From a virus (Duplodnaviria; Heunggongvirae; Uroviricota; Caudoviricetes), in IMG/VR virus record IMGVR_UViG_3300018432_000003, positions 19,394 through 83,393 of that record: a stretch of 64,000 nt of DNA. One strand, given 5' to 3'. Positions 1 to 45,372 of the stretch are shown here, in pieces. Position 1 is the first letter of the stretch, and every line of letters begins with the position of its first letter. Made by a program: the position numbers and the translations under genes. The notes under the pieces were generated by a model. The model saw nothing but the letters and a program-made list of their open reading frames with translations. It was not told the DNA's origin and ran no database searches.

Positions 1-47
1 TTAGTGCCTCGTCCTTTCGTCTGCTTTGCTGTCATATACTCTCCTAG

Positions 48-120
48 TAGACCACATAGGATTCGAACCTATACTGAGCGGTACTTAAAGCCGCTGCCTC
101 TGCCGTTGGGCTAGTGGTCC
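48..120 (-). tRNA. tRNA, anticodon UAA (Leu-like) but short variable arm; identity uncertain
   Basis: RC shows acceptor ggaccac/gtggtct, T-arm atagg-attcgaa-cctat, anticodon stem gcggt/gccgc around loop reading UUUAAGU on the - strand; C31.A39 mismatch. Confidence 0.6.
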
Positions 121-126
121 GAAAAG

Positions 127-209
127 TACCCACATTCGGAGTCGAACCGAAACGCACTAAGGGCACAGGGTTTTGAATCCTGCGTGTCTACCAATTCCAC
201 CATGCGGGC
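127..209 (-). tRNA. tRNA-Leu (CAA), type II
   Basis: T-arm ttcgg-agtcgaa-ccgaa, long variable region, anticodon loop UUCAAAA on - strand, 83 nt. Confidence 0.6.
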
Positions 210-220
210 ATATTGTGAAG

Positions 221-292
221 GGCGATGGACCGGACTCGAACCGGCACTTTAGCGGACACAACGCTAATTTCTGCCATTGAATTACCAACGCC
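221..292 (-). tRNA. tRNA-His (GUG)
   Basis: T-arm accgg-actcgaa-ccggc; anticodon stem tagcg/cgcta with loop UUGUGUC; extra 5' G(-1) opposite discriminator C as in His tRNAs. Confidence 0.65.
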
Positions 293-350
293 ATGATTGT
301 ACTTTGGGACGCGGGTACCGTTATAGCCACTGGACTTCTCCCAAAGTAAG

Positions 351-432
351 TACCGCCCACGAGAGTCGAACTCGTACGCCTGTGAAGCACTGACTCCTCA
401 AGCCAGCGTGTCTACCATTCCACCAGAGCGGC
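351..432 (-). tRNA. tRNA type II (long variable arm), anticodon tentatively GAG (Leu)
   Basis: T-arm acgag-agtcgaa-ctcgt, acceptor accgccc/gagcggc with G-U pairs, 82 nt; anticodon arm assignment ambiguous. Confidence 0.5.
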
Positions 433-483
433 ATATAGAGGTCAATAGCGGCGAAGGGGTTTCCTTAGCCGCCACTGCCCAAG

Positions 484-566
484 TACGAGTAGAGGGATTC
501 GAACCCACACGCCCGAAGGCACTGCGTTCTAAGCGCAGCCTGTCTACCAATTCCATGCATACTCGC
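484..566 (-). tRNA. tRNA-Leu (UAG), type II
   Basis: T-arm gaggg-attcgaa-cccac, variable hairpin gcc-cgaa-ggc, anticodon stem ctgcg/cgcag loop CUUAGAA on - strand. Confidence 0.65.
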
Positions 567-580
567 AAGTTGTGTAAAAG

Positions 581-669
581 CGGAGGTAGTAGGAGTCGAA
601 CCCACACGATGACACCTCTGCCACCATCACGGTTTTCAAGACCGATAAGCACGCCAATGCGTACCCCCG
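581..669 (-). tRNA. tRNA-Ser (UGA), type II
   Basis: T-arm gtagg-agtcgaa-cccac, 89 nt with long variable arm, anticodon loop CUUGAAA. Confidence 0.6.
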
Positions 670-673
670 TAAG

Positions 674-760
674 CGGAAAGCCTGGGACTTGAACCCAGAA
701 CGTGACGTTATGCACGCGCTTCCTTAGCAGGGAAGTTCCTCGTCCAGCCGGTCACTTTCC
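674..760 (-). tRNA. tRNA-Ser (GCU), type II
   Basis: T-arm ctggg-acttgaa-cccag, anticodon stem cttcc/ggaag loop CUGCUAA, 87 nt. Confidence 0.65.
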
Positions 761-874
761 ATATTGTCCAACGTGCCCCAACCAATCGCACGCCAGTTCG
801 GACGGCATAACGCGCCCTTACCATAATGTGCTGTGGAGCGAAGTCCACAGAGCGAGGGGGTTATGTTGTGTAAG

Positions 875-946
875 TGGGCCAGGAAGGATTCGAACCTACG
901 GCTTCCTCTTTGTAAGAGAGGCACTCTCCCGCTGAGTTACAAGCCC
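875..946 (-). tRNA. tRNA-Val (UAC)
   Basis: T-arm gaagg-attcgaa-cctac, anticodon stem cctct/agagg loop CUUACAA. Confidence 0.65.
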
Positions 947-954
947 ATTATAAG

Positions 955-1025
955 TACCGATACCCGGATTCGAACCGAGGCTACAACCTTGAGAGGGTTG
1001 CGTGCTACCGCTACACAATACCGGC
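955..1025 (-). tRNA. tRNA-Glu (CUC)
   Basis: T-arm cccgg-attcgaa-ccgag, anticodon stem caacc/ggttg loop CUCUCAA. Confidence 0.65.
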
Positions 1026-1031
1026 ATAAAG

Positions 1032-1102
1032 CTCCGGGCCGTGGAATCGAACCACGATTTCTGGATTCAGAGTCCAGCGTGCTGCCTTTACACCATCCCG
1101 AA
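1032..1102 (-). tRNA. tRNA-Gln (CUG)
   Basis: T-arm cgtgg-aatcgaa-ccacg, anticodon stem ctgga/tccag loop CUCUGAA; U1-A72 start as in Gln tRNAs. Confidence 0.65.
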
Positions 1103-1188
1103 ATAGATTGTTACCAACTGCGCTTTCCGAAGATACTCCAAGTGCGCTTAATCACCAGAATCTCCTTGTCATGTTGCCTCCTTTGTTG

Positions 1189-1262
1189 TGGACGTACTAG
1201 GACTCGAACCTAGGACTTCCTCTTTATGAGAGAGTTGCTCTAACCAACTGAACTATACGTCC
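1189..1262 (-). tRNA. tRNA with CAU anticodon (elongator Met or Ile-lysidine)
   Basis: Perfect acceptor ggacgta/tacgtcc, T-arm ctagg-actcgaa-cctag, anticodon loop CUCAUAA. Confidence 0.7.
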
Positions 1263-1267
1263 AAAAG

Positions 1268-1339
1268 AGACTCTAGTTGGATTCGAACCAACGTGTACGG
1301 GGTTGCAACCCGCTACCTCCACCACTCGGCCATAGAGTC
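1268..1339 (-). tRNA. tRNA-Cys (GCA)
   Basis: Perfect acceptor gactcta/tagagtc, T-arm gttgg-attcgaa-ccaac, anticodon loop UUGCAAC. Confidence 0.7.
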
Positions 1340-1351
1340 AATGAGATTATA

Positions 1352-1443
1352 CTTGGGGGCAGGGAATCGAACCGTGCCATTTGGAAGTAGCCTTCAACTA
1401 GAGGTTCCACGCATCCACGTTTTACCACTTAAACTACCCAAGT
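1352..1443 (-). tRNA. tRNA-like gene, type II length, anticodon not resolvable (possible aberrant or pseudo tRNA)
   Basis: T-arm caggg-aatcgaa-ccgtg and D-arm-like gttt-aagtggtaa-aaac present but acceptor stem has 2 mismatches and no clean anticodon stem found. Confidence 0.35.
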
Positions 1444-1538
1444 AAAATCATCTCGGATTTCCAGCCTCCAGGTCACCGAGGACTACGCCATGTAGCCATG
1501 CCTTGTTGTTTCATACCCTCGTGGTATGAACCCACCAG

Positions 1539-1612
1539 TCGGGAATGTTGGACTCGAACCAACGACCACTCGCATCCGAAGCGAGTACGCTACCAAACTG
1601 CGCCAATTCCCG
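1539..1612 (-). tRNA. tRNA-Pro (CGG)
   Basis: Perfect acceptor cgggaat/attcccg, T-arm gttgg-actcgaa-ccaac, anticodon stem ctcgc/gcgag loop UUCGGAU. Confidence 0.7.
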
Positions 1613-1646
1613 TTTGCGTGTTTTGGTGTGGTTGCACGCTCCACAG

Positions 1647-1720
1647 TTGGCGTGCTCGGACTCGAACCGAGAACCCCTGCGTTCCAAACGCAGCACTCTG
1701 ACCAATTGAGCTACACACCA
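1647..1720 (-). tRNA. tRNA-Pro (UGG)
   Basis: T-arm ctcgg-actcgaa-ccgag, anticodon stem ctgcg/cgcag loop UUUGGAA. Confidence 0.7.
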
Positions 1721-1729
1721 ATTGTAAAG

Positions 1730-1801
1730 TGGTTTCGGTAGGAATCGAACCTACGACACGATGGGCTTCAACCAACTGCTCTACCTCTGAGCTACGAAAC
1801 C
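1730..1801 (-). tRNA. tRNA-Phe (GAA)
   Basis: Perfect acceptor ggtttcg/cgaaacc, T-arm gtagg-aatcgaa-cctac, anticodon loop UUGAAGC (one stem mismatch). Confidence 0.6.
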
Positions 1802-1807
1802 ATGTTG

Positions 1808-1879
1808 CTCCCCGACTAGGATTCGAACCTAGGACATACGCATTAACAGTGCGCCGTTCTGCCGCTGAACTATCAGGGA
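1808..1879 (-). tRNA. tRNA-Asn (GUU)
   Basis: T-arm ctagg-attcgaa-cctag, anticodon stem acgca/tgcgc loop CUGUUAA, U1-A72. Confidence 0.65.
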
Positions 1880-1976
1880 ATGTTACCCGTTATCGCCCCC
1901 AACTGGTTTAGCCGATAGTGGGACTTCCGGCCTACGCAGCGGTCCCACAGGGCGTTGTAGCCACGGGTGGGGCTAG

Positions 1977-2058
1977 TGGATGCACTAGGATTCGAACCTA
2001 GGTAGCACATGGCAACAGGTTTACAGCCTGCCCTCGTTGTCCGCTTGAGTATACATCC
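1977..2058 (-). tRNA. tRNA-Tyr (GUA), type II
   Basis: T-arm ctagg-attcgaa-cctag, 82 nt with long variable arm, anticodon loop CUGUAAA. Confidence 0.65.
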
Positions 2059-2075
2059 ATATTGTATGCCCCAGA

Positions 2076-2117
2076 ACGCCAGTTCCAATGTTGGGAATCG
2101 AACCCGGAGCATATAGT
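2076..2117 (-). pseudogene. tRNA 3'-half remnant (acceptor 3' strand + T-arm only)
   Basis: ttggg-aatcgaa-cccgg T-arm-like motif but only ~40 nt before the next complete tRNA; no room for D/anticodon arms. Confidence 0.35.
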
Positions 2118-2191
2118 AATGACGGGTGGACTCGAACCACCGACGTACAGGATATGAGCCTGCTGTTCTGCCGACTGAACTACGCCATCAT
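2118..2191 (-). tRNA. tRNA with CAU anticodon (Met/Ile2-like; A1-U72, not initiator-like)
   Basis: Acceptor atgacgg/ccatcat, T-arm gtgg-actcgaa-ccac, anticodon stem acagg/cctgc loop CUCAUAU. Confidence 0.6.
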
Positions 2192-2196
2192 GTGAG

Positions 2197-2269
2197 CGGA
2201 AGTGACGAGAATCGAACTCGCTCTTGAACCGTGACAGGGTTCCGTGCAGGACCACCACACTACACCTCC
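2197..2269 (-). tRNA. tRNA-Asp (GUC)
   Basis: T-arm acgag-aatcgaa-ctcgc, anticodon stem gaacc/ggttc loop CUGUCAC, discriminator G. Confidence 0.7.
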
Positions 2270-2309
2270 GATGGGGCAGTTGTTTCAGGCACAGCTACCA
2301 AAGCCTCAT

Positions 2310-2378
2310 AGCGGGTTACAGAGTCGAACTGCAAACACGAGGACATGAACCTCGTATGTTACCTTTACACCAACCCGC
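2310..2378 (-). tRNA. tRNA with CAU anticodon (third CAU species: fMet/Met/Ile2 candidate)
   Basis: Perfect 7-bp acceptor gcgggtt/aacccgc, anticodon stem cgagg/cctcg loop UUCAUGU, weak T-stem. Confidence 0.55.
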
Positions 2379-2387
2379 ACGCTATAG

Positions 2388-2626
2388 TGGAACCGGCGGG
2401 GGTTGAACCCGCGTCTTGAATCGAATCATTGGGAGTAGTTCTTTGAGTGTTTCTATCCGTATTAGAGGGCTGCTACTAGTTCCCTTTCCTCTACGGTCAC
2501 AGTGTCAACGTCTGCGAGGAATGACTCAATCTCTGCCGCCAAGTCCTCAGCTTCCTGAGATACTACAATATCATTGCCGTGTGTTTGTTCTGCCCCTATC
2601 AATCCAATCGAAACCAGTACGGCCCC
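2388..2626 (-). ncRNA. ssrA: tmRNA (SsrA)-like RNA, compact ~239 nt; tag ORF at 2462-2536 (-) encoding AEIESFLADVDTVTVEERELVAAL
   Basis: The - strand 5' end GGGGCCGTACTGGTTTCGATTGG parallels E. coli ssrA GGGGCTGATTCTGGATTCGACGGG. The 3' end GACGCGGGTTCAACCCCCGCCGGTTCCA parallels GACGCGGGTTCAACTCCCGCCAGCTCCA. The 5' GGGGCCG pairs with 3' CGGTTCC and includes a G3.U70 wobble. An in-frame GCA resume codon lies ~90 nt from the 5' end and the ORF ends AAL-stop 45 nt before the T-arm. CCA is not encoded. Confidence 0.55.
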
Positions 2627-2915
2627 AAAAGGGTCGCCCCCGCTCCCCGAGAGAAGCGGGCACGATATAAGTTGGAAGGTGGGACTGTCATCCCACAACG
2701 AGAGGTAAAGCCTTGACATCGCAAGTCTGCTCTCGACCTCACACGCTCCCCGGTAAGGGTAACACAGTCTACTAACCCCTCGGCTTTCGGGCCTCACACG
2801 GTAATGTCCCGCTACATGGCACTCTTCTGCGTTGCACGTATGCGACATTATCCCCGACGCTTTACGGCAGGGATTTTTCTGCCACTTCCGGTAGCCAGCC
2901 GTCGCCAGCTACTAG

Positions 2916-2987
2916 TAGGACATGACGGATTCGAACCGACACCGGCCACCTTGAAAGGGTGGTGAGCTTCCGTTACTCCAATGTCCC
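2916..2987 (-). tRNA. tRNA-Glu (UUC)
   Basis: T-arm gacgg-attcgaa-ccgac, anticodon stem ccacc/ggtgg loop CUUUCAA. Confidence 0.65.
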
Positions 2988-3237: not shown

Positions 3238-3247
3238 ATATATCTTA

Positions 3248-3276
3248 ATTATACACCACATCGTGCAAGTTGTCAA
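3248..3276 (-). promoter_or_regulatory. sigma70-type promoter for the tRNA/tmRNA array (TTGACA-N17-TGTATAAT on - strand)
   Basis: RC of 3245-3280 reads gcacTTGACAacttgcacgatgtggtgTATAATtaa; predicted TSS ~3241, 4 nt upstream of tRNA-Trp 5' end. Confidence 0.6.
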
Positions 3277-3348
3277 GTGCTTCATGGGGTGTATAAAAAT
3301 TACCCCTCTACTTATAATGGAGACGATAGGTTCCGGGGGGTCCAAAAG

Positions 3349-4246: not shown

Positions 4247-4323
4247 CTAGTCTCCTGTTCTAAGGCGTGTAATTTATGACCATACTTACATTATAACACA
4301 CTAAGCATGTAATGTCAAGTCTC

Positions 4324-6342: not shown

Positions 6343-6385
6343 GTAATTATAACGGTTGACACCGAGCAGAAAGGACTGCACACAT

Positions 6386-7288
6386 ATGGGTTACTTGGAT
6401 GACTTCATCCATTGGTTGAATAACGAAGTCGGTGGGGAAGGACCCTTACCAGGGTTGGACCACGGTGACTTCGGACAGATTATGGGTGAGAGCCTCTCAA
6501 GGCACTACGCTGAGGACAGACAGAAGGGTGGCTTGCGAATGAGCAACATCGGCAAGCCTGCCGCAGTGCTCGCACTCGCCCACCTAGGGTACGTTGAACC
6601 TGAACCTAAAGGTAAGTCTCGCATAATCTTCCTGATGGGTGACATGTACGAGAACTGGTTGGAGGTCATGCTCAAGGTTTACGGATTTGAAATCATAGAG
6701 AGCCAGCCTGAGATGAACTTCATGGGTATTACAGGTCACGCCGACTTCGTGATTAAGAACCCTGAGAACGATGAACCACTCATCATTGAAGCTAAGACGA
6801 TGAGTGAAGGGTATGCGAGGATGTTCTCACGGGAACTCAACGACGACCGGGGGTACATATCACAGCTTGGCATGTACAGTCACGGTTATCGGAAGGAACC
6901 TACCGACTGTACTTGGGTGTGTTTCAATAAAGGGAATGCCGAGACATTCGAGTTGGTCCCACCGGAAGGGTTGATACTCCAAAGACTCGACCGCGCCGAA
7001 CAGGTCATCAAGAGGGTTCGGAGGGTTAAGTCCGTTGAGGACATCTTGGAACAGGTTAGGGTGCCCCCACCGAGGCCGGAAGTCTACCAGAAGAAGGAGA
7101 CTGGTAAGTTCCTCGTTCCAGGGTCCTTATCGTACAGTCCTTTCAAGCGTGCCCTCTACGTTACATCCGACGGAACTAACGGGTACGGTAAGCCTACCAC
7201 TTACGTGGATAGGGAAGCCGACAGTGCGCACTTGAAGAAGGAACTTGAACTACTAGTTGAGTCAGGTACGGTGATGCTCGATGGTTGA
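6386..7288 (+). CDS. PD-(D/E)XK nuclease, RecB/YqaJ-like exonuclease candidate
   Basis: GHADFVI...IIEAKT (D...ExK core) plus YISQLGMY; ATG 6386 after AAAGGA SD (track start 6356). Confidence 0.45.
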   Translation: MGYLDDFIHWLNNEVGGEGPLPGLDHGDFGQIMGESLSRHYAEDRQKGGLRMSNIGKPAAVLALAHLGYVEPEPKGKSRIIFLMGDMYENWLEVMLKVYGFEIIESQPEMNFMGITGHADFVIKNPENDEPLIIEAKTMSEGYARMFSRELNDDRGYISQLGMYSHGYRKEPTDCTWVCFNKGNAETFELVPPEGLILQRLDRAEQVIKRVRRVKSVEDILEQVRVPPPRPEVYQKKETGKFLVPGSLSYSPFKRALYVTSDGTNGYGKPTTYVDREADSAHLKKELELLVESGTVMLDG

Positions 7289-11423: not shown

Positions 11424-11699
11424 GAGGCGGAGCTATGTCCAATGTCCTCAGTTGCAGTACTTGATTGGCGCGGCCTTCGTACCCGCGCAAGGCGGAGCTA
11501 TGCAACAAATTAAGCAAGCATGCAGTACCGTAGGTACTCCGAAAGGCGGCACGGAGGATAATCCGTCGCATCTTTACACGTAAGGCGTGCGCATTCGGTT
11601 GGATGCCGAAAACGGCCATGTTCAATCATGGTGGCGAACCCGTTCGACTCGGGTATGCGTACCTACGCGCTCGTGGGTGGTCCACGAGGCGGAGCTATG
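11424..11699 (+). repeat. three copies of AGGCGGAGCTATG each preceded by a GC-rich palindrome, in a ~65% GC island
   Basis: Copies at 11424-11437, 11489-11502, 11686-11699. Confidence 0.5.
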
Positions 11700-35562: not shown

Positions 35563-35827
35563 GACGATAGATGAATACCTCTGGAACGTGAAGGAGTACG
35601 ACGAGTGGAAGCACAGGTACATCGCGGAGACTGACGACGAGAAGATTAAGCAGGACAGCTACATGACTGCGCACGAGAGGGCAGCTAAGGCAGCGTGGAG
35701 TGCCCTGGCACCGCTGAAAGGCCGAAGGGTTATCGTAGATGGTATTGTATACCTTATACGTGAAGATGATGAGAAGTACGACTGGAATGAACTGATAGTG
35801 GAACAGAAGGAGGGAGTGCTTGCATGA
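35552..35827 (+). CDS. hypothetical protein (91 aa)
   Basis: ORF. Confidence 0.45.
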   Translation: MAAKTIDEYLWNVKEYDEWKHRYIAETDDEKIKQDSYMTAHERAAKAAWSALAPLKGRRVIVDGIVYLIREDDEKYDWNELIVEQKEGVLA

Positions 35828-37887
35828 GCGAGCGTTACTATGGATTATCTTTCAGACTGGATGACGATTTCGTTGAGTCTTACATCAATCGTGATGTCCC
35901 TTGGGGCTTTGGTGTTCTCTCTGAAGTCTCTTTCTTACGTTCGTACTCTCGACAGAAAGACGTACGAACTGGAACGTCATGGCCCTACGACACGGGAAAC
36001 CTTGAAGATTTCCAGTACGGAGGGAAGGAAGCATGGTGGGAGACATGCGAGCGAGTAATCTGTGGCATGTACAGCATACAGAAGGACCACGTGCTGAACA
36101 TGAGGATGGAGTGGGACGAGGATAAGGCACAGAAGTCTGCACGTGAGGCGTACGACAGACTGTTCAATCTAAAGTGGAGTCCTGCTGGCCGTGGTCTGTG
36201 GGCGATGGGTACGTACCTAGTCAACTACAAGAAGGATAGCAGTGCGCTCTACAACTGCTTCTTCGTGTCCACAAAGGACATTGACAAGGACTTCACTGAA
36301 CCGTTCACATTCTTGATGGATGCAAGCATGATGGGAGGCGGAGTTGGATTCGACACTCGCGGAGAGTACGCGGGAGTTACGCTGGAAGAACCTGTTGGGG
36401 CCTTTGGATACAAGATACCCGACTCTAGGACAGGTTGGGTCAAGTCAGTTGAGCTTCTGCTTCGAGCTTACCTTGGCGGACCCATCCCGAGGTTCGACTA
36501 CTCTGACATACGACCAGAGGGCGCTCCTATCATTACTTTCGGAGGGACAGCCCCCGGACCCAAGCCCCTCAAAGTCCTTCACAGAAAACTTAAAATCCTA
36601 CTCGATGCCTACGTGGGGCAGGCGGTAGACTCACGTCTAATCGTTGACATAATGAACCTGATTGGTGTCGCAGTGGTGTCCGGTAACGTACGGCGCAGTG
36701 CTGAGTTGGCCTTGGGGGAGTATGAGGACGGTGAGTTCTGGCACTTGAAGGATTACAGTGCGAAGAACAGCTACCGTAAGAAGCACGGTTGGATGTCCAA
36801 CAACTCCTTGATAGTCACGCACGCAACACAGGTTGACTACGATAAGATTGCAAAGAGGATTGCAAGGGAGGGCGAACCAGGGTTATTCTACATTGAGAAC
36901 GCCCGCAACTACGGAAGGATGAAGAATGGTCCTGACTATGCGGACATTGATATCGAAGGTGCGAACCCTTGCGTTGAGATTGGGTTGGAGGACCACGAAG
37001 CCTGCAACCTCATCGAGCAGTTCATCAACAACGCCAATAACCTGGAGGACTTTCTCCGCACGCAGAAATTCGTATACCTATACGGAAAGACGGTTACCCT
37101 CCTGCCGACACACTGGCCGAAGGTAAACCAGAAGCAACTGCGTAACAGGCGAATAGGTGCAAGCCTGACTGGTGTCGCACAGTTCGTGGACGGCAACAGT
37201 TATGACGAGCTAAAGCATTGGATGGAGTTAGGATATGAGACTCTCCGTGAGTGGGATGAGGAATACTCCCGTTGGCTTTGTGTCCGAGAGTCGATTAAGG
37301 TCACTGCAATCAAGCCATCCGGTACTGTATCACTCCTGGCAGGCTCGACTGCCGGAGTACATTGGCCTACATCCAACTCTTACATTAGGCGAATCACCCT
37401 CCCGAAAGACTCGGCCCTTGTGGGTCCGCTTACGGAGGCTGGATACCGCATTGAGAAATCAGCGTATAGCCCCGATACCTCCGTTGTTGCAGAAATTCCC
37501 ATACTTGTTGGCGATGCGCGTTCTGAGGACGAAGTTAGTATCTTCGAGAAGATTGGCCTCGTTGCGCTCGCACAGGAGTATTGGGCGGACAACATGGTTA
37601 GCAACACACAAGTTTTCGACCCGTACCACGAGGTTGAATCGCTCGCGGCTGCACTACGACTTAATGCAGACAAACTCAAGTCGGTGTCCGCACTACCCAG
37701 AAGCAATGGAGTATACGCACAGATGCCTGAGCAGCCGTTTCCAGAGGGAGCAATTAGGCATATCCTAGAGAACGACCTGAAACCAGTGGACTTCTCTGAC
37801 ATATATGCAGGGAGGGTTCTCTCTGACGACGCACAGCGGAGCCTAGGTTGCGACACTGACGTGTGTGAAATCCCGAGCAGAAAGTAG
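35824..37887 (+). CDS. ribonucleotide reductase catalytic subunit (no beta subunit seen; possibly class II B12-dependent)
   Basis: NCFFVS...SMMGGGVGFD and ANPCVEI...EACNL motifs, 687 aa. Confidence 0.65.
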   Translation: MSERYYGLSFRLDDDFVESYINRDVPWGFGVLSEVSFLRSYSRQKDVRTGTSWPYDTGNLEDFQYGGKEAWWETCERVICGMYSIQKDHVLNMRMEWDEDKAQKSAREAYDRLFNLKWSPAGRGLWAMGTYLVNYKKDSSALYNCFFVSTKDIDKDFTEPFTFLMDASMMGGGVGFDTRGEYAGVTLEEPVGAFGYKIPDSRTGWVKSVELLLRAYLGGPIPRFDYSDIRPEGAPIITFGGTAPGPKPLKVLHRKLKILLDAYVGQAVDSRLIVDIMNLIGVAVVSGNVRRSAELALGEYEDGEFWHLKDYSAKNSYRKKHGWMSNNSLIVTHATQVDYDKIAKRIAREGEPGLFYIENARNYGRMKNGPDYADIDIEGANPCVEIGLEDHEACNLIEQFINNANNLEDFLRTQKFVYLYGKTVTLLPTHWPKVNQKQLRNRRIGASLTGVAQFVDGNSYDELKHWMELGYETLREWDEEYSRWLCVRESIKVTAIKPSGTVSLLAGSTAGVHWPTSNSYIRRITLPKDSALVGPLTEAGYRIEKSAYSPDTSVVAEIPILVGDARSEDEVSIFEKIGLVALAQEYWADNMVSNTQVFDPYHEVESLAAALRLNADKLKSVSALPRSNGVYAQMPEQPFPEGAIRHILENDLKPVDFSDIYAGRVLSDDAQRSLGCDTDVCEIPSRK

Positions 37888-37893
37888 GAGAGA

Positions 37894-38766
37894 ATGGCTA
37901 CAAAGAACCTGATAATCTACGACGCTGACCCTGATGGATTCGGGTGTGCGTACGCTGCGTGGAAAGCCCTGCCTGACGGCGAGACTGACTTCATGGAGAT
38001 ACTCCACGGTTCGGATATACCTCCTGGGTGCTCAGCGTATGAGAACGTGTACATACTAGACCTGTCGTTCAGCAGGGATGAGATGGAGTCACTAGCCTCT
38101 TTCAGTAAGGTGACGGTCATAGACCACCACCCGAGTGCGAAGGAGGATGTAGAGAAGCTGAGGCTGAACCCCTTCCCCTTCAACACTGAGGAAGCCGCCT
38201 GCGTACAGTCCTGGGACTTCTTCCATCCGTACGAGCCTCGCCCTAAGATACTACAGTACGTTGGGGATAGGGACACGTGGACTTTCGAGTTGCCTGCGAG
38301 TGAAGCAATCAACCAGTACATCTACACTGTGGACCAGACGTTCCTTGAGTGGAGTTGTGCGAACGAGGTCATAGAAACACAGTGGGAGTATGCCATGTCG
38401 GTAGGGAATCGCCTGCTCAAGTACCGCGACAGGCTAGTGGACGAGATTGTAAAGGAAGCCACGACCCCAAACAACTGGCAGGGTGCGTACTCAATCTACG
38501 GCATACCGTTCGTGTCGGCACCAGTCCTCCACAGTGAAGTCGGCCACAGGTTGCTGGACGAACACCCGAATGCCCCCTTCGCAGTCACATTCTATGACGA
38601 GAAGGATAAAGGGACCCGCAAGTACAGTCTCCGTAGCGAGGACCATAGGGTTGATGTAGGGAAGTTCGCTTCAGAGAGGGGCGGTGGCGGTCACCACAAC
38701 GCCGCAGGATTCAGGAGGTCACTGGACGACATCTGGAAGGAAGGACATGCGGCAGTACGAGGATAA
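37894..38766 (+). CDS. DHH-DHHA1 phosphoesterase (NrnA/RecJ-like)
   Basis: IIYDADPDGFGC ... VIDHH ... GGGGHHNAAGF. Confidence 0.65.
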   Translation: MATKNLIIYDADPDGFGCAYAAWKALPDGETDFMEILHGSDIPPGCSAYENVYILDLSFSRDEMESLASFSKVTVIDHHPSAKEDVEKLRLNPFPFNTEEAACVQSWDFFHPYEPRPKILQYVGDRDTWTFELPASEAINQYIYTVDQTFLEWSCANEVIETQWEYAMSVGNRLLKYRDRLVDEIVKEATTPNNWQGAYSIYGIPFVSAPVLHSEVGHRLLDEHPNAPFAVTFYDEKDKGTRKYSLRSEDHRVDVGKFASERGGGGHHNAAGFRRSLDDIWKEGHAAVRG

Positions 38767-39073
38767 CGTAGGCGAGAGGGTCATTGCGGGTGATAACATT
38801 GTAGGCTTGCAGGACGGTCAGTGTACAGCATACAAGATGGACTGGCCGATGTACGAACAGAACCCTGTGTACATGTTCGTAGTGGAGGTACTCAGTACGG
38901 GTGAGCAGCATGCATTCACTCGCCCGTTCACCATATACTTCCGCAATGGATGGCCTAGCTTAGTGTGGGAGATTAGTAATGGACAACTAGTAGCCGTACC
39001 TATCACCAGGGCTGCACTGAAGCAGGCCGGTAGCGTGTGGCTTGTGGAGGAAGCTAATGAGAACGTCAACTAA
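38747..39073 (+). CDS. hypothetical protein (~108 aa)
   Basis: ATG 38747 (track 38684). Confidence 0.4.
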   Translation: MRQYEDNVGERVIAGDNIVGLQDGQCTAYKMDWPMYEQNPVYMFVVEVLSTGEQHAFTRPFTIYFRNGWPSLVWEISNGQLVAVPITRAALKQAGSVWLVEEANENVN

Positions 39074-39080
39074 CTTCAAG

Positions 39081-40472
39081 ATGACCCCGAGGTTATACAG
39101 CCTTGCGGGTGCCTTCGAGAGTAGGGGGTATGAGTTCTACTTCGTCGGTGGTTTCGTCAGGGACACACTGATGATAAGCTCTTCGAAGGATGTAGACGCC
39201 ACAACCAACGCACCCCCGAGCGAGATAAAGGCCATACTCCGACAGCACTTTGGGGATAGCCTCGACGCAATGTACACCGTAGGCGAGAAGTATGGTACCA
39301 TCGGTCTGAAGATTGGTGTCCTCGACGTTGAGATTACGACGTACAGGACTGAGCAGTATGAGGATGGGAGTCGAAAGCCGGAGGTTGCGTTCGGTAGTAG
39401 TCTCTATGAGGACCTGTCGCGTAGGGATTTCACCATCAATGCCATCGCATGCGATAAGGATGCAAACATAATCGACCCTTACGGCGGGTTGGATGATATA
39501 CAGGAAGGAGTTGTTCGCTTTGTCGGTAAGCCTTATGAGCGCATATTGGAGGACCCACTGCGCCTTCTACGGGCAGTTCGCTTTGCAGCCCGTTATGACT
39601 TCGCTCTACCTCAACTGTTTGCTATACGAGTCGATTCGTCCGCGCTCCTTGAAGTCTCGAAGGAGAGGATAAGGGACGAACTCTGCAAGATGCTGGTGGA
39701 CGAGAAGCCCTCACGTGCAATCCGCATGCTGAAGGAGGCTTGGCTGCTGAGGTACGTAACCCGTGAGGTTGACAGGCTTGACACTGTTGAGCAGATAAGC
39801 CCCTACCACTATGAGAACGCCTTCGACCACACCATGAGGGTCCTTGACGAGAGCTACCCTGAACTAGACCAGAGGCTTGCTGCACTACTGCACGATACTG
39901 GTAAGTTCGACACGATAGAGTACCACAACGACCCTGACGAACGCACCACGTTCTACGGGCATGAGGAAGCGTCTGCGAGGTTTGCACATCGCATGCTGCA
40001 CAGGCTCAGGTTCCCTCACGTGATAGTGAACAAGGTCACCCACATGGTGGCGTGTCACATGCGTCCACTCCAACTCTACAATGAACTGGATGCTGGTAAG
40101 ACCCCTTCCAACCGTGCAATCCGCAGATTCATCAAAGCATGTCAGGCAGACAACTGCACTGTGGAGGACGTGTTGGAGCTTAACTACGCTGACATGAAGG
40201 GCCATGCAGAGCCGAACATGGACAACTTCTATCAGCTTGAGCGTCTAGTCAAGACTGTACGCACCGACGACAACTTCCAGCCGGAGGAAGCAGACAGCCC
40301 GCTGGATGGTAACGAGTTGATGGAACTCTTCAACGGAAAGGCAGGCCCAGGACCGTGGATTGGAGCTACTAAGGCACACTTGACAAACCTCGTAGTTGAT
40401 GGTATAATAGAGGTAGACGATAAAGAAGGTGCCAAGAGGGAGGCCCTAGACTATTGGAATCGAAGAAAGTAA
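39081..40472 (+). CDS. cca: tRNA nucleotidyltransferase (CCA-adding enzyme) with C-terminal HD domain
   Basis: GGFVRD ... DVD ... RRDFTINAIA ... EDPLRLLRAVRFAARY head domain; LLHDTGK HD motif; track start 39042. Confidence 0.65.
   Translation: MTPRLYSLAGAFESRGYEFYFVGGFVRDTLMISSSKDVDATTNAPPSEIKAILRQHFGDSLDAMYTVGEKYGTIGLKIGVLDVEITTYRTEQYEDGSRKPEVAFGSSLYEDLSRRDFTINAIACDKDANIIDPYGGLDDIQEGVVRFVGKPYERILEDPLRLLRAVRFAARYDFALPQLFAIRVDSSALLEVSKERIRDELCKMLVDEKPSRAIRMLKEAWLLRYVTREVDRLDTVEQISPYHYENAFDHTMRVLDESYPELDQRLAALLHDTGKFDTIEYHNDPDERTTFYGHEEASARFAHRMLHRLRFPHVIVNKVTHMVACHMRPLQLYNELDAGKTPSNRAIRRFIKACQADNCTVEDVLELNYADMKGHAEPNMDNFYQLERLVKTVRTDDNFQPEEADSPLDGNELMELFNGKAGPGPWIGATKAHLTNLVVDGIIEVDDKEGAKREALDYWNRRK
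40380..40408 (+). promoter_or_regulatory. sigma70-type promoter TTGACA-N17-TGgTATAAT inside 3' end of cca
   Basis: cTTGACAaacctcgtagttgatggTATAATa. Confidence 0.5.
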
Positions 40473-40858
40473 TCATAGCGGGGAGCAGGGACATCACACT
40501 TGCTCCCTTCGCTATCTCTGAGATTATACGATTGGCGGGGTACGAAACCTCGTCAACCCTCGCTGAGATAGACGACAAGCCGGTGATAACGGAGGTAGTG
40601 TGCGGTAAGGCAAGAGGCATCGACACGTCCGGGGAAGAGTGGGCGCACACTGCTGGAGTACACGTGATGGAGTTCCCTGCAAATTGGGGGTTCCACGGTA
40701 AGGCTGCTGGTCCGATACGCAACAAAGAGATGGCTGACTACGCCGACGACTTGGTGTTGATATGGAACGGGCGTAGTACTGGCAGTGGCAGCATGAAGTC
40801 TATAATGTTGGGGGTTGGTAAGCCAGTGTACGAGGTCATAATCAAAGGGTGGTCATGA
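40454..40858 (+). CDS. DprA-like SLOG-superfamily Rossmann protein (DUF2493/YspA-like)
   Basis: VIIAGSRDIT ... VVCGKARGIDTSGEEWAH ... IRNKEMADYADDLVLIWNGRSTGSGSM; TTG start. Confidence 0.5.
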   Translation: MESKKVIIAGSRDITLAPFAISEIIRLAGYETSSTLAEIDDKPVITEVVCGKARGIDTSGEEWAHTAGVHVMEFPANWGFHGKAAGPIRNKEMADYADDLVLIWNGRSTGSGSMKSIMLGVGKPVYEVIIKGWS

Positions 40859-41031
40859 GAGCAGTAGAGCTAAACAAGCAAGACTTGCAGACGTGTGGGG
40901 AGTGTGGTAGGTTATTCACAGCGGCAGTACCGATGGCCTTCTGCCCTCCGTGCCACGTCTACATGGAGTTCATGGTACTGTGGAATGCATACCTATACAA
41001 CAGATGGAAGGTGTTACCGTACAATGATTAA
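40855..41031 (+). CDS. small zinc-ribbon protein (58 aa)
   Basis: CGECG ... CPPC; ATGA overlap. Confidence 0.4.
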   Translation: MRAVELNKQDLQTCGECGRLFTAAVPMAFCPPCHVYMEFMVLWNAYLYNRWKVLPYND

Positions 41032-41386
41032 GTGGTTCTGCCAGTGGTATCTGAGGAAGTTCCCTCCGCGTACACCGGAAGGTAAGCACCCCGCACTCGA
41101 ACCGTGGGTTGTGGCGGTGACCCTCACCACTGACTCTGGCAGCAAGGAAGTCAGGTACGTTGAGTTCAAGAAGGATAGCCTGATGTACTGGAGTGGTCAT
41201 GAGGACTGGACTACGGCTAGGGAGTACGCACTCAGCAGGGCCGACAGCATAAAGAAGAACGGTTTCACTGAGTGGGTTGATGACCTAAAAAACCACTACC
41301 CTGTGCATCGAGTCCATCTAGTGCAGGCGTTCCCTAAGCCTACACAGCCGAAGGTGAGTGTTGCAGTTGACGACACCAACGTATAG
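41023..41386 (+). CDS. hypothetical protein (121 aa)
   Basis: ATG 41023 (MIKWFCQ...); upstream part of track ORF 40895 looks non-coding. Confidence 0.45.
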
Positions 41387-41873
41387 TTTCAGTGAACAGC
41401 TTGAGCGTGGTCAGCATTGGGAGGGTATATTAGACGAGTACTTTGAGCGTTGGTACAACATAAGGGAAGCTACTAGGGACGAACAGCGGAGGGGCATTGA
41501 CAGGTGGTTCAGGTACATCCCAGGCCCCGGTGGTCAGGACATAACCCGCACTCACCCTGCACAGATACCTGTAGAGTATAAGGCCGACGATAAGACCTCC
41601 ACAACTGGTAATGTGTTCATCGAGACTGACAGTATAGTTGAGAAGGACAAACCAGGGTGGGCTTGGAAGAGTGAGGCTGAGATATTAGTGTACCTCGCTA
41701 TACCCGACACTCTCTACATCGCAAAGATGAAGAACGTGCGCAGGAGAATACGCCAGTGGAGAGGACTGTACGGCAGCAGGAGAGTGAAGAACGAGTACTG
41801 GACTTCACGTGGGATTCCAGTACCGGAGGAAGAATTTGCAAGGGTATGCGACAGCGTTAGGAGACTACCGTAA
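41358..41873 (+). CDS. hypothetical protein, possible PD-(D/E)XK nuclease
   Basis: GIDRWF ... IPVEYKAD core; TTG start after AAGGTGAG. Confidence 0.35.
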   Translation: MLQLTTPTYSFSEQLERGQHWEGILDEYFERWYNIREATRDEQRRGIDRWFRYIPGPGGQDITRTHPAQIPVEYKADDKTSTTGNVFIETDSIVEKDKPGWAWKSEAEILVYLAIPDTLYIAKMKNVRRRIRQWRGLYGSRRVKNEYWTSRGIPVPEEEFARVCDSVRRLP

Positions 41874-43620: not shown

Positions 43621-45372
43621 ATGCCAGTATATGTAGACGTTGAGACTACGGGGCTAGACCCCCGTCAGGATAAGCTGCGTCTGGTGCAATTCGCTTGGCA
43701 AGGGTTCAGTGGTGTGTTTGACGTGTGGGAGGATGAAGCCAGGGAGTACGTCACCAGACACTTAGGTTATGCTAACGAGCGAGGGGAGACATTCGTAGCA
43801 CACAACGCACAGTTCGACCTCGACTTCCTACAGGAGCACCTTGGCATCAAGTGGGAGGGTAAAGTCTTTGACACTATGGTGGCCTTCCAGATACTCACCA
43901 ACGGTATACACGAACTGCGTCCTACTAAAGAGGGTCCTAAGATGCTCCCTCTCAAGAACGGCTTGGATGATGTAGTTGTGCGGCTTCGTCCGAAGGTACC
44001 AGTGTTCCAGCGTCACGGTGAGTGGGAACCCTACACTATGGACAAGACGTACCAGAAGCCTGAGTGGTATGCAGACCCATACTTCCAAGGTGAGCGCAGC
44101 AGGGTTATGCAGTACGCTGGTGAGGATACCGCTGTCTTGGAACTGATACATCCGGTGTTGGAGGACACCCTGAAAGAGAACCCTAAGCTGTACGACCTCT
44201 TCAAGTTGGAGATGCGGGTACTGCCGATTATACTTGAGGCGACACGGAAGGGTATACGGATAGACGAGGAACGTGCCTCGGAGATTGCACGTACACTCCA
44301 AGGTGAAGTCGATTGGCTGGAAGAGTTCGAAGTGATACCTAACGTGCCGGAGGATGACATCGACGAGTTCAACCCACGCTCGCCAACTGAGATGTCTCGG
44401 TACTTCGACCTCCCTGACGCAACGGAGGATACGTTTAGGGAGTACGTGAAGAACACTAAGGATGCCTTGGCGGAGGCAGTGATGGAGATGAAGAAGAGGA
44501 TGAAGAAGCAGTCCTCTGTGGAGAAGCAGCTACTTGAGAGGATAGCATACGATGGACGTATACATCCCCGGTTCAATCAAACGGGTACGGAGACTGGTCG
44601 CTTTAGCTCTAGCGGTCCCAATCTTCAGAATCAGGACAGGGGTGCTGACATTCGGGGGTTGTTTGTTCCCGCCCCTGGCTGTAAGTTTGTCATTGCTGAT
44701 TATTCTCAGCTTGAACTGAGGCTTGCAGCACTGTTCAGTCGTGACGAGGTAATGCTGGAGGCGTACCAGAAGGCGGAGTCAGACCTACACGGTGAGACAC
44801 AAAGGAGAATCTTTGGCGACCCTGATAAGATGGATAAAGAGACAGCAAAGAAAACTAGAACACTCAGCAAGAACATCAATTTCGGCTTGGTCTTTGGCGG
44901 TGGACATGGTACGCTTATTAAGTTCGCTGCTAAGATGGGCGTTGAAATAGGGGAGGATGAGGCGATTGAGTACAAGGAAGCCTTCCGACAGACCTACCCA
45001 GGACTCTACAGGTGGCAGCGAATTCAAGGGAATGTCAAACCTAACCATGTCACCACGGTCAAGGGACGCCGCCGCTTCATCGAGAGTGGTAAAGCGTATT
45101 GTACGAGGATTAATCACCCTGTACAGGGCAGTGCGGCGGACGGTATGAAGTCAGCACTGATACGTGTCTACCAGGAGGGTATACTCCCGTTGGTGAACGT
45201 CCACGACGAGTTGCTGTGCGAGGTTCCGGCTGAGTATGCGGAAGAGGCAGCGGCGACAGTGATACGTTGCATGGAAGAGGGCATGTACAGTGCTACCGAG
45301 ATGAACCCGGATAACCCTATAGTACCTATCGTAGTTGAAGGAGGCGTGGCAGATTCATGGGCAGAAAAATAG
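43621..45372 (+). CDS. family A DNA polymerase with 3'-5' exonuclease domain
   Basis: Exo motifs VDVETTGLDP and HNAQFDLDFL; pol motifs KKTRTLSKNINFGLVFGGG, RRFIESGK...HPVQGSAADGMK, VHDELLCEVP. Confidence 0.75.
   Translation: MPVYVDVETTGLDPRQDKLRLVQFAWQGFSGVFDVWEDEAREYVTRHLGYANERGETFVAHNAQFDLDFLQEHLGIKWEGKVFDTMVAFQILTNGIHELRPTKEGPKMLPLKNGLDDVVVRLRPKVPVFQRHGEWEPYTMDKTYQKPEWYADPYFQGERSRVMQYAGEDTAVLELIHPVLEDTLKENPKLYDLFKLEMRVLPIILEATRKGIRIDEERASEIARTLQGEVDWLEEFEVIPNVPEDDIDEFNPRSPTEMSRYFDLPDATEDTFREYVKNTKDALAEAVMEMKKRMKKQSSVEKQLLERIAYDGRIHPRFNQTGTETGRFSSSGPNLQNQDRGADIRGLFVPAPGCKFVIADYSQLELRLAALFSRDEVMLEAYQKAESDLHGETQRRIFGDPDKMDKETAKKTRTLSKNINFGLVFGGGHGTLIKFAAKMGVEIGEDEAIEYKEAFRQTYPGLYRWQRIQGNVKPNHVTTVKGRRRFIESGKAYCTRINHPVQGSAADGMKSALIRVYQEGILPLVNVHDELLCEVPAEYAEEAAATVIRCMEEGMYSATEMNPDNPIVPIVVEGGVADSWAEK

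What the first reader, a model, noticed from the sequence alone, without database searches (positions are those of the whole stretch)
37894..41873. Candidate anti-defence / RNA-repair module: DHH-DHHA1 phosphoesterase, CCA-adding enzyme with HD domain, own-promoter SLOG (DprA-like) protein, Zn-ribbon and PD-(D/E)XK-like proteins
Established knowledge of the families involved:
- DHH-DHHA1 enzymes (NrnA, GdpP, Pde2) hydrolyse nanoRNAs and cyclic di/oligonucleotides.
- SLOG/DprA-like Rossmann domains are ligand-binding modules for nucleotide-derived signals in CBASS, Thoeris and related systems.
- CCA-adding enzymes with HD (2',3'-cyclic phosphodiesterase) domains repair tRNA 3' ends.

In this phage these three co-localise at 37.9-40.9 kb directly downstream of RNR. 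The SLOG gene has its own strong promoter embedded in cca. The genome also carries about 24 tRNAs and a tmRNA without encoded CCA.

Hypothesis: a combined countermeasure to tRNA-targeting nucleases (tRNA repair) and to cyclic-nucleotide immune signalling (signal degradation by DHH, sequestration by the SLOG protein).
Basis: inference. Interest (0 to 1): 0.7.

Follow-up and report, generated by a model that had tools for sequence, protein, structure and literature searches.

The report
Phage DHH, CCA and SLOG genes

Summary
Observation confirmed. On the + strand, directly after a class II ribonucleotide reductase, lie:
- an intact DHH/DHHA1 phosphoesterase;
- a CCA-adding enzyme with an HD domain;
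- a 134-aa SLOG (YAcAr, DprA-like) protein behind a perfect sigma-70 promoter;
- a 4-Cys zinc ribbon;
- a protein with a PD-(D/E)XK-like motif.

All 21 tRNAs and a tmRNA lack an encoded CCA.

Interpretation weakly supported. The "module" is not conserved.
- RNR, DHH, orf168 and PolA are kept in all four related lineages. CCA and SLOG are found only in the window phage and its closest relative, where an HNH endonuclease separates them.
- More distant DHH relatives also sit among replication or nucleotide-metabolism genes.
- The SLOG promoter is one of 11 perfect promoters in the window and starts a separate transcription unit running towards PolA.
- Two lineages carry 18-27 CCA-less tRNAs but no CCA gene in the parts I could read.
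- No RNA ligase, kinase-phosphatase, Macro, NADAR or Nudix gene was seen over window 11-64 kb.

Most likely reading, all inferred: the DHH enzyme recycles oligonucleotides for dNTP supply, the CCA enzyme completes the phage's own tRNA and tmRNA ends, and the SLOG ligand is unknown. Anti-signalling roles for phage DHH and SLOG proteins were already predicted in print (PMC7824862, PMC9503650), and I found no experimental test.

The parts
35824..37887 (+). Class II (B12-dependent) ribonucleotide reductase, immediately upstream. It is the conserved neighbour of the DHH gene.
   Evidence: PF17975, PF21995 and PF02867; phrog_367 at 3e-107. RNR-DHH linkage is seen in L002, L004, L006 and L012.
37894..38766 (+). 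Stand-alone DHH/DHHA1 phosphoesterase, 290 aa, NrnA/NrnB-like. The motifs DxDxD, D56, DHH77-79, DRD125-127 and GGGGH263-267 are intact.
   Evidence: Homologues are named COG2404 NrnB/cAMP/cGMP PDE by JGI.
38747..39073 (+). orf108, unknown function. It overlaps both neighbouring genes and is shared only with L006.
   Evidence: Gene call; no family hit; 49% identity in L006.
39057..40472 (+). Class II CCA-adding tRNA nucleotidyltransferase with a C-terminal HD domain, 471 aa.
   Evidence: PF01743 7e-32, PF12627 and PF01966. TIGR02692 at 278 bits over positions 8-465 of 466. phrog_2244 at 4e-72. GGFVRD, DVD, EDLSRRD and LLHD are read from the sequence.
40380..40408 (+). Sigma-70 consensus promoter with an extended -10, inside the 3' end of the CCA gene, 46 nt upstream of the SLOG start.
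   Evidence: 12/12 match. One of 11 perfect matches against 0 expected. An 11/12 version with conserved leader and RBS is kept in L006.
40454..40858 (+). SLOG-superfamily protein of the YAcAr/DprA-like family, 134 aa. It is the first gene of the transcription unit that runs towards PolA.
   Evidence: PF10686; phrog_289. Homologues in 569 phage records and more than 1000 metagenomic homologues. Invariant GSR, GxAxGxD, AGPIRN and SxG. AF2 pLDDT 96.7; fold hits 3uqz, 7uxs, 8zva and 4ljk.
40855..41031 (+). 58-aa four-cysteine zinc-ribbon protein.
   Evidence: CGEC...CPPC in the sequence. PF12773 is marginal at 0.02. Homologues in L006, L004 and L012.
41024..41386 (+). orf120, unknown function, shared only with L006.
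41367..41873 (+). orf168, a conserved core protein with a PD-(D/E)XK-like motif (E19, D45, E70-x-K72). Probably a nuclease.
   Evidence: Present in all four lineages. Motif invariant or nearly invariant. Family of 829 clusters. Only marginal PD-(D/E)XK clan hits among members. No PDB match.
43621..45372 (+). Family A DNA polymerase with a 3'-5' exonuclease domain. It anchors the block as a replication module.
47..2987 (-). Array of 21 tRNA genes, none encoding CCA. These are the likely substrates of the CCA enzyme.
2385..2626 (-). tmRNA gene without an encoded CCA, with a 33-aa tag.
   Evidence: Rfam RF00023 at 47.4 bits. 3' end read. Tag. 86% identical to the ARAGORN-called tmRNA in L020.

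Best explanation
This is a tightly packed part of the replication and nucleotide-supply block of a novel phage of about 86 kb. The block runs Prim-Pol ... RNR ... PolA ... DnaB, SSB.

1. The DHH/DHHA1 protein is a conserved core gene linked to RNR. It most likely works as an NrnA/NrnB-type exonuclease or phosphoesterase on short oligonucleotides. These would come from host RNA breakdown and from the many 4-9 nt spacers released when the highly transcribed tRNA array is processed. The resulting mononucleotides would feed the RNR and polymerase pathway. This step is inferred.
2. The CCA-adding enzyme is an accessory gene. It completes and repairs the 3' ends of the phage's 21 or more tRNAs and its tmRNA, none of which encodes CCA. 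The substrates are shown; the activity is inferred from family membership.
3. The SLOG protein belongs to a very widespread phage family. It begins a separate transcription unit, driven by the host RNA polymerase, that runs towards the polymerase gene (another perfect promoter lies at 43153). It binds or processes a nucleotide-like ligand that remains unknown.
4. orf168 is probably a PD-(D/E)XK nuclease of the replication or recombination apparatus.
For: - Domain and fold assignments.
- Synteny: RNR, DHH, orf168 and PolA are present in all four related lineages. CCA, SLOG, orf108 and orf120 are present only in the window phage and L006.
- DHH lies within about 1.5 kb downstream of RNR in L002, L004, L006 and L012.
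- More distant DHH relatives sit next to PolA, PDDEXK and SNF2 helicase (L010), or next to Dam, MazG, deoxyribosyltransferase, dGTP diphosphohydrolase and endonuclease VII (L011).
- In L006 an HNH endonuclease separates CCA from SLOG, yet the promoter is kept.
- There are 11 perfect promoters in the window, five of them upstream of the tRNA array.
- No tRNA or tmRNA encodes CCA.
- Tested NrnB enzymes are 3'-5' exonucleases on short RNA and short DNA. They did not act on c-di-AMP in three homologues, or on pAp in B. subtilis NrnB (PMC12709177, PMC10570053).
- No defence-related hit for DHH or SLOG in PADLOC.
Against: - No biochemistry exists for any of these proteins.
- Sequence and fold cannot separate a nanoRNase from a cyclic-nucleotide phosphodiesterase. 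GdpP, CnpB/Rv2837c, Pde2 and PggH are all among the fold hits.
- Two related lineages carry 18-27 CCA-less tRNAs with no CCA gene in the roughly 42 kb read from each. The phage CCA enzyme is therefore not obligatory for tRNA maturation and may give a conditional, possibly defence-related, advantage.
- In N4-like phages the SLOG homologue is an early gene near DUF4326 and an ADP-ribosylglycohydrolase. This fits the published anti-ADP-ribose-signal prediction (PMC9503650).
- In phiCbK the DHH gene lies near an HD-type PDEase.
- DHH is only 59% identical between the two closest phages, against 87% for RNR, so it evolves relatively fast.
Confidence: 0.55

Rival explanations
1. The three genes form a combined countermeasure: DHH degrades cyclic di- or oligonucleotide immune signals, SLOG sequesters or hydrolyses nucleotide-derived signals, and the CCA-HD enzyme repairs tRNA 3' ends damaged by host nucleases or toxins.
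For: - Host DHH enzymes do degrade immune signals. Examples are NrN on SAM-AMP (PMC10600005) and a membrane DHH-DHHA1 nuclease on the type III second messenger (reference 164 in PMC7824862).
- Iyer et al. predicted these roles for phage DHH, SLOG and CCA genes.
- The SLOG fold resembles the ThsA SLOG domain bound to 3'cADPR.
- N4-like SLOG genes are early genes near ADP-ribose-processing genes.
- CCA is accessory in this lineage, as counter-defence genes often are.
Against: - The synteny is not conserved, and DHH is a core gene tied to RNR and PolA.
- SLOG is in a different transcription unit.
- No partner RNA-repair genes were seen: no ligase, kinase-phosphatase or 2H enzyme. No Macro, NADAR or Nudix gene appears among the recorded Pfam hits.
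- There is no resemblance to any validated sponge or signal-degrading phage protein in the fold hits.
- The NrnB proteins tested were inactive on c-di-AMP (PMC12709177).
Confidence: 0.12
2. A DNA-processing reading. DHH acts as a RecJ/GAN-like exonuclease on DNA flaps or RNA primers, since the phage PolA has no 5'-3' exonuclease domain. SLOG acts as a minimal DprA-like single-strand-binding or recombination mediator. orf168 is the partner nuclease.
For: - DHH, SLOG and orf168 all lie between RNR and PolA.
- The PolA Pfam hits are the 3'-5' exonuclease and polymerase domains only.
- The best SLOG fold match is DprA, and the GSR and RN motifs are conserved.
- In Vibrio phage H188 the SLOG gene sits between a Cas4-type exonuclease and a helicase.
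- L010 places DHH beside a PDDEXK protein and helicases.
- B. subtilis NrnB also cuts short DNA (PMC10570053).
Against: - The DHH protein lacks the OB-fold and extra domains of RecJ, and RecJ ranks below the NrnA-like hits.
- The SLOG protein lacks the DprA accessory domains. Its own Pfam scan matched only PF10686, not the DprA family PF02481.
- SLOG is absent from two lineages that keep the rest of the replication block.
Confidence: 0.15
3. A tRNA 3'-end maturation pair. The NrnB-like 3'-5' exoribonuclease trims the short 3' trailers of the phage tRNAs, and the adjacent CCA enzyme then adds CA or CCA.
For: - DHH and CCA are separated by one small gene.
- Nearly all tRNAs in four lineages end N73-C74-(U/A)75, with spacers of 4-9 nt.
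- All lineages with such arrays that could be checked carry the DHH gene.
- NrnB enzymes degrade from the 3' end (PMC12709177).
Against: - DHH is conserved without CCA in two lineages.
- DHH sits about 35 kb from the tRNA array, next to RNR.
- DHH relatives also occur in a small phage (Vibrio phage P2, 46 kb) where only one tRNA gene was annotated in the 10.8 kb examined.
- The protein lacks the C-terminal extension that correlates with activity on long RNA (PMC12709177).
Confidence: 0.08

Closest known systems
NrnB/NrnA-type stand-alone DHH-DHHA1 nanoRNases (COG2404; B. subtilis NrnB, H. pylori NrnB, M. smegmatis NrnA)
   Same: Two-domain DHH plus DHHA1 architecture of about 290-350 aa. All DHH motifs and the GGGH motif are present. 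The best fold hits are 6mtz (an H. pylori DHH protein) and 4ls9 (mycobacterial NrnA). JGI names the close homologues COG2404.
   Different: Only 15-18% identical to any solved structure. Pfam scores fall below the gathering cut-offs. The gene is phage-encoded and linked to RNR. It has no long C-terminal extension. Its substrate is untested.
Cyclic-nucleotide DHH phosphodiesterases (GdpP, CnpB/Rv2837c, Pde2, PggH, CRISPR-associated NrN)
   Same: Same fold and catalytic motifs. These proteins appear in the same fold-hit list with similar scores.
   Different: No GGDEF, PAS or membrane domains. No association with a signalling or CRISPR locus. No sequence feature available here separates the two activities.
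Bacterial class II CCA-adding enzymes with an HD domain (actinobacterial type, TIGR02692; E. coli Cca)
   Same: Head, neck and RNA-binding domains plus an HD domain. Full-length alignment to TIGR02692. GGxVRD, DxD and EDxxR motifs are present.
   Different: The score of 278 bits is below the equivalog cut-off of 438.8. The gene is phage-encoded and accessory within its own phage lineage.
Phage YAcAr/YpsA-like SLOG proteins (PF10686, phrog_289), annotated 'GTP-binding domain' or 'DprA' in N4-like and many other phages
   Same: Same family, size and conserved motifs. 40-46% identical to homologues in Vibrio, Salmonella, Escherichia and Aeromonas phages.
   Different: Its genomic neighbours differ. 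Here it sits in a replication block behind its own promoter. In N4-like phages it is an early gene near DUF4326 and an ADP-ribosylglycohydrolase.
DprA Rossmann-like domain and the ThsA SLOG domain
   Same: Closest solved folds (3uqz at 4e-4, 7uxs at 1e-3). The GSR and RN motifs are shared with DprA.
   Different: A minimal 134-aa domain without the SAM and winged-helix domains of DprA and without the SIR2 domain of ThsA. Identity is 14-20%.

Membership tests
DHH/DHHA1 phosphoesterase superfamily | DHH motifs I-IV (DxD, D, DHH, D) | tested here: met
   D10, D12 and D14, then D56, D77-H78-H79 and D125-R126-D127. D14, D56, D77-H78-H79 and D125-R126-D127 are invariant and D10 and D12 nearly invariant (at least 90%) in 21 homologues.
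DHH/DHHA1 phosphoesterase superfamily | DHHA1 domain with the GGGH motif, and the two-domain fold | tested here: met
   G263-G266 and H267 are invariant. The AF2 model has pLDDT 94.6. 75 PDB matches at E<=1e-3, and all 50 listed are DHH-family proteins.
NrnB (COG2404) nanoRNases | 3'-5' exonuclease activity on 2-5-nt RNA, and placement in an NrnB clade | not testable with these tools
   Only indirect support: JGI's name for homologues and the top fold hit 6mtz. No phylogeny or assay was done.
Cyclic di/oligonucleotide DHH phosphodiesterases | Hydrolysis of c-di-AMP, cGAMP, cOA or SAM-AMP | not testable with these tools
   Fold hits include GdpP, Rv2837c, Pde2 and PggH at similar scores. No discriminating motif is known to me.
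Class II CCA-adding enzymes | PolyA_pol head domain with GGxVRD, DxD and EDxxR(RD) motifs | tested here: met
   PF01743 at 7e-32. GGFVRD, DVD and EDLSRRD are read in the translation.
Class II CCA-adding enzymes | Equivalog-level match to a curated CCA model | tested here: not met
   TIGR02692 at 278.5 bits against a cut-off of 438.8, although the alignment is full length. The protein is family-level, not an equivalog.
CCA enzymes with a repair HD domain | HD domain with H...HD...H/D residues | tested here: met
   PF01966 at 2.5e-7, 31.4 bits against a cut-off of 22. DHT...LLHDTGK...YGHEE is in the sequence. Phosphodiesterase activity was not tested.
SLOG superfamily, YAcAr family (PF10686) | Pfam match above the gathering score, and a Rossmann-like SLOG fold | tested here: met
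   35.3 bits against 28.2. Fold hits are DprA, ThsA SLOG and ShosA.
DprA/Smf | PF02481 match, a Rossmann domain of about 200 aa plus accessory domains, and ssDNA or RecA binding | tested here: not met
   The query hits only PF10686. It is 134 aa long and covers about a third of the DprA chains (TMt 0.32-0.39). Binding was not tested.
Validated phage signal sponges and signal-degrading enzymes (Tad1, Tad2, Acb1, Acb2, Acb4, Acb5, Apyc1, AcrIII-1) | Sequence or fold relationship to a validated member | tested here: not met
   None appears among the PDB fold hits for either model. PDB sequence searches returned only DHH-family chains for DHH and nothing for SLOG. The papers I read report no DHH or SLOG member.
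PD-(D/E)XK nucleases (orf168) | E...D...(D/E)xK catalytic motif on a restriction-endonuclease-like fold | tested here: inconclusive
   E19, D45 and E70-x-K72 are invariant in the four close homologues and at least 90% conserved across the wider family alignment. Three single-member marginal hits, all to clan members: RE_MjaI, NOV_C and PDDEXK_5. No PDB or hhalign support. No structure model was made.
Conserved functional gene module (DHH + CCA + SLOG) | Co-occurrence and adjacency kept across related and unrelated genomes | tested here: not met
   The three occur together only in the window phage and L006. L002 and L004 have DHH without CCA or SLOG. L012 has DHH and SLOG without CCA. The host-genus distributions of the three families among GenBank phages differ.

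The most novel reading that the evidence does not exclude
The phage DHH/DHHA1 enzyme is a new class of phage-encoded immune-signal phosphodiesterase acting on cyclic oligonucleotides or SAM-AMP-like signals. The widespread minimal SLOG protein would be a binder or hydrolase of ADP-ribose-derived or other nucleotide signals. Two very common but uncharacterised phage protein families would then be counter-defence factors.
Probability: 0.12. Interest if true: 0.65.

Novelty: new member of a known kind. Interest (0 to 1): 0.3.

Why it matters
The result shows how easily adjacent genes in a densely packed phage genome can be read as a module. Comparison with four related lineages separates a core RNR-DHH-nuclease-polymerase set from accessory CCA and SLOG genes.

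Phage DHH and YAcAr-SLOG proteins are common. This search found them in 110 and 569 GenBank phage records, and the SLOG search returned more than 1000 metagenomic homologues. I found no experimental function for either family in phages.

The lineage offers natural with/without comparisons for testing what a phage CCA enzyme adds when every phage tRNA lacks CCA. As it stands, this is an ordinary annotation result with an already published speculative overlay.

Tried and rejected
- Megablast of the region against GenBank phages found nothing.
- Back-translated pattern search of IMG/VR with the DHH protein found no relative.
- PADLOC gave only spurious Cas3-HD hits to the CCA HD domain and nothing for DHH or SLOG.
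- Sequence searches of the PDB with SLOG and orf168 gave nothing usable.
- hhalign of orf168 against two PD-(D/E)XK phage proteins gave no relationship.
- A literature search for DUF2493/YAcAr returned almost only caiman papers.
- Searches for experimental work on phage DHH, phage SLOG or phage CCA enzymes as counter-defence found predictions only.
- I considered treating the SLOG promoter as special. I rejected this because it is one of 11 identical-consensus promoters in the window.
- I considered the CCA enzyme obligatory for phage tRNA maturation. I weakened this after finding relatives with CCA-less tRNA arrays and no CCA gene in the parts I could read.
- I could not confirm that PDB 6mtz is the H. 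pylori NrnB studied in PMC12709177.

Full report
WHAT IS THERE

The window is part of a phage contig of about 86 kb assembled from one sequencing run (Logan SRR6958552). It has no nucleotide-level relative among GenBank phages and no close DHH relative in IMG/VR.

From about 5 to 56 kb the genes run on the + strand. Those with recorded families are Prim-Pol, a Band_7 protein, class II ribonucleotide reductase, family A DNA polymerase, DnaB, SSB and HNH endonucleases. Lysis and tail genes follow on the - strand.

The finding covers the stretch directly after RNR (35824-37887). The genes overlap one another by 4-20 nt:
- DHH/DHHA1, 37894-38766
- orf108, 38747-39073
- CCA-adding enzyme, 39057-40472
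- SLOG, 40454-40858
- a four-cysteine zinc ribbon, 40855-41031
- orf120, 41024-41386
- orf168, 41367-41873

CHECK OF THE OBSERVATION

Each family assignment holds.

- DHH. It matches phrog_4771 at 2e-57 and gives weak Pfam DHH and DHHA1 hits. The catalytic residues are invariant or nearly so in an alignment of 21 homologues that reach down to 30% identity. They are D10/D12/D14, D56, D77-H78-H79, D125-R126-D127 and the GGGGH motif at 263-267. The AlphaFold model is confident (pLDDT 94.6), and all 50 listed PDB matches are DHH-family proteins, 75 in total reaching E<=1e-3.
- CCA. It has the PolyA_pol head domain (7e-32), the RNA-binding domain and an HD domain. It aligns end to end with the actinobacterial CCA model TIGR02692, though below that model's equivalog cut-off.
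- SLOG. It passes the Pfam gathering score for YAcAr. Its model (pLDDT 96.7) is closest to DprA and to the ThsA SLOG domain.
- Promoter. The promoter inside the 3' end of the CCA gene is a perfect TTGACA-17-TATAAT with an extended -10.
- tRNAs and tmRNA. The window holds 21 tRNA genes and a tmRNA found by Rfam. None encodes CCA.
- orf168. The PD-(D/E)XK label is the weakest part. The E19/D45/E70-x-K72 motif is conserved across a large family. Only three marginal hits to clan members support the fold, and no structure was made.

IS IT A MODULE?

I recovered the same region from related phages through DHH homologues. I then compared all genes by tblastn.

- RNR, DHH, orf168 and PolA are present in every lineage: L006, L002/L003 and L004/L005.
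- CCA, SLOG, orf108 and orf120 are present only in the window phage and its closest relative, L006.
- In L006 an HNH homing endonuclease is inserted between CCA and SLOG. The SLOG promoter, leader and ribosome-binding site are nevertheless kept.
- A further relative, L012, has RNR, DHH, ThyX and a SLOG gene but no CCA.
- Still more distant DHH homologues lie among replication or nucleotide-metabolism genes. In L010 the neighbours are PolA, a PDDEXK protein and an SNF2 helicase. In L011 they are Dam, MazG, a deoxyribosyltransferase-like protein, a dGTP diphosphohydrolase and endonuclease VII.

So the constant partner of DHH is the DNA-precursor and replication machinery, not CCA or SLOG.

The promoter is also not special to SLOG. 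It is one of 11 perfect-consensus promoters in the window, where none is expected by chance. Five of them sit upstream of the tRNA array and six are spread along the + strand block. It therefore places SLOG in a different transcription unit from DHH and CCA, one that runs towards the polymerase gene. Another perfect promoter lies at 43153, just upstream of it.

THE CCA ENZYME AND THE tRNAs

Twenty of 21 tRNAs and the tmRNA end N73-C74 followed by T or A, never CCA. The enzyme therefore has at least 22 phage-encoded substrates.

I tested whether the enzyme tracks the tRNA array. Using a conserved protein next to the array, I fetched the equivalent region from three relatives. All three carry large arrays of 18, 27 and 20 genes with the same C74-without-CCA signature. 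No CCA gene is present in the roughly 42 kb read from each of the two lineages that lack it in the RNR-PolA block.

Unless the gene hides in the unread halves of those contigs, the host enzyme is enough for maturation. The phage copy would then be an accessory that raises capacity or gives a conditional advantage. This leaves some room for a repair or counter-defence role.

Nothing else points that way, however. No RNA ligase, polynucleotide kinase-phosphatase, 2H, Macro, NADAR or Nudix gene is recorded across window 11-64 kb.

WHAT THE DHH PROTEIN MOST LIKELY DOES

The best structural match is an uncharacterised H. pylori DHH protein (6mtz). It is followed by mycobacterial NrnA, a PAP phosphatase, Borrelia DhhP, Rv2837c/CnpB, TM1595, Pde2, GdpP and RecJ, all at 13-18% identity.

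JGI names the close homologues COG2404, the NrnB/cAMP/cGMP PDE group. Characterised NrnB proteins degrade short RNA, and short DNA, from the 3' end. Three homologues did not act on c-di-AMP, and B. subtilis NrnB did not act on pAp (PMC12709177, PMC10570053).

Given the conserved position beside RNR, the most economical reading is oligonucleotide recycling into the nucleotide pool. The 4-9 nt spacers released from the heavily transcribed tRNA array would add to that load. All of this is inference. Fold and motifs cannot exclude cyclic-nucleotide hydrolysis, and host DHH enzymes that degrade immune signals are known (NrN on SAM-AMP, PMC10600005).

Distant phage homologues give mixed hints. In phiCbK the gene lies near an HD-type PDEase. 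In Acinetobacter phage ME3 it lies near a metallophosphoesterase.

THE SLOG PROTEIN

This is a member of a very large family of stand-alone proteins of about 115-135 aa. Homologues occur in 569 GenBank phage records and in more than 1000 metagenomic sequences. The invariant motifs are GSR, GxAxGxD, AGPIRN and SxG.

Its neighbours vary from phage to phage:
- a Cas4-type exonuclease and a helicase in Vibrio phage H188;
- RNR, a deoxyribosyltransferase and PnuC in Aeromonas phage BUCT695;
- early genes including DUF4326 and an ADP-ribosylglycohydrolase in an N4-like phage.

Iyer, Burroughs and Aravind predicted that viral YpsA-like SLOG domains sense or cleave ADP-ribose-derived signals (PMC9503650). 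The same group also proposed that phage DprA-like SLOG proteins bind ssDNA, that phage DHH enzymes counter cyclic-nucleotide signals, and that phage CCA enzymes repair tRNA (PMC7824862).

Neither model resembles a validated sponge or signal-degrading phage protein.

VERDICT

The interpretation as a combined anti-defence and RNA-repair module is only partly supported.

My best explanation, at confidence 0.55, is three independently acting functions inside a replication and nucleotide-supply block:
- a core NrnA/NrnB-like oligonucleotide phosphoesterase tied to RNR;
- an accessory CCA-adding enzyme serving the phage's CCA-less tRNAs and tmRNA;
- a widespread SLOG protein whose ligand is unknown.

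Novelty is that of new members of known families. Interest is modest at 0.3. It comes mainly from the natural with/without comparisons this phage lineage offers and from the lack of any biochemistry for two very common phage protein families.

Noticed in passing
window 3132-4318 (- strand); 6314, 24798, 40380, 43153, 48011, 51820 (+ strand): Eleven perfect TTGACA-N17-TATAAT promoters, most with an extended -10 TG, where none is expected by chance. Five are stacked just upstream of the tRNA array. This suggests very strong transcription by the host RNA polymerase and a host with a canonical sigma-70 consensus.
   Followed up: partly
window 47-2987 (-); L018 1874-7610; L019 344-7583; L020 60-6644: Nearly every tRNA gene in four related phage lineages encodes C at position 74, followed by T or A and never by CCA. 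Counts are 20/21, 18/18, 25/27 and 18/20. Spacers between genes are often only 4-9 nt. This conserved 3'-end signature implies a specific processing route.
   Followed up: partly
window 2385-2626 (-); L020 6173-6411 (-): A phage tmRNA of about 240 nt sits just above the Rfam threshold. ARAGORN missed it in the window. It carries an unusually long acidic tag of 33 aa, VSQEAEDLAAEIESFLADVDTVTVEERELVAAL. It is 86% identical to the copy in a relative, with compensatory changes in the T-arm.
   Followed up: partly
L006 5080-5778: An HNH endonuclease gene is inserted between CCA and SLOG in the closest relative. Downstream of it, a 23-codon relic resembling the CCA C-terminus still carries the SLOG promoter and leader.
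   Followed up: partly
L019 3603-5108; L020 2758-4194; L018 3874-4803: Relatives carry a sulfatase/phosphodiesterase-family gene or an ornithine/aspartate carbamoyltransferase gene embedded in the tRNA array.
   Followed up: no
window 41367-41873: orf168 belongs to a large uncharacterised family of 829 clusters at 50% identity, mostly proteins of about 160 aa. It has no Pfam model. It has a conserved E/D/ExK motif and is a core gene just upstream of PolA in all relatives.
   Followed up: partly
window 11588-11663 (+); L020 14065-14155 (+): ARAGORN reports tRNA-like structures with abnormal anticodon loops (two-base 'anticodons'), far from the main array and on the opposite strand, in both the window and a relative.
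   Followed up: no
window 6356-7288 (+): A conserved protein of about 280-310 aa next to the tRNA array has no Pfam hit. It carries a D...EAK stretch (GHADFVI...IIEAKT) suggestive of another PD-(D/E)XK-type exonuclease. It is present in all relatives at 51-87% identity.
   Followed up: no
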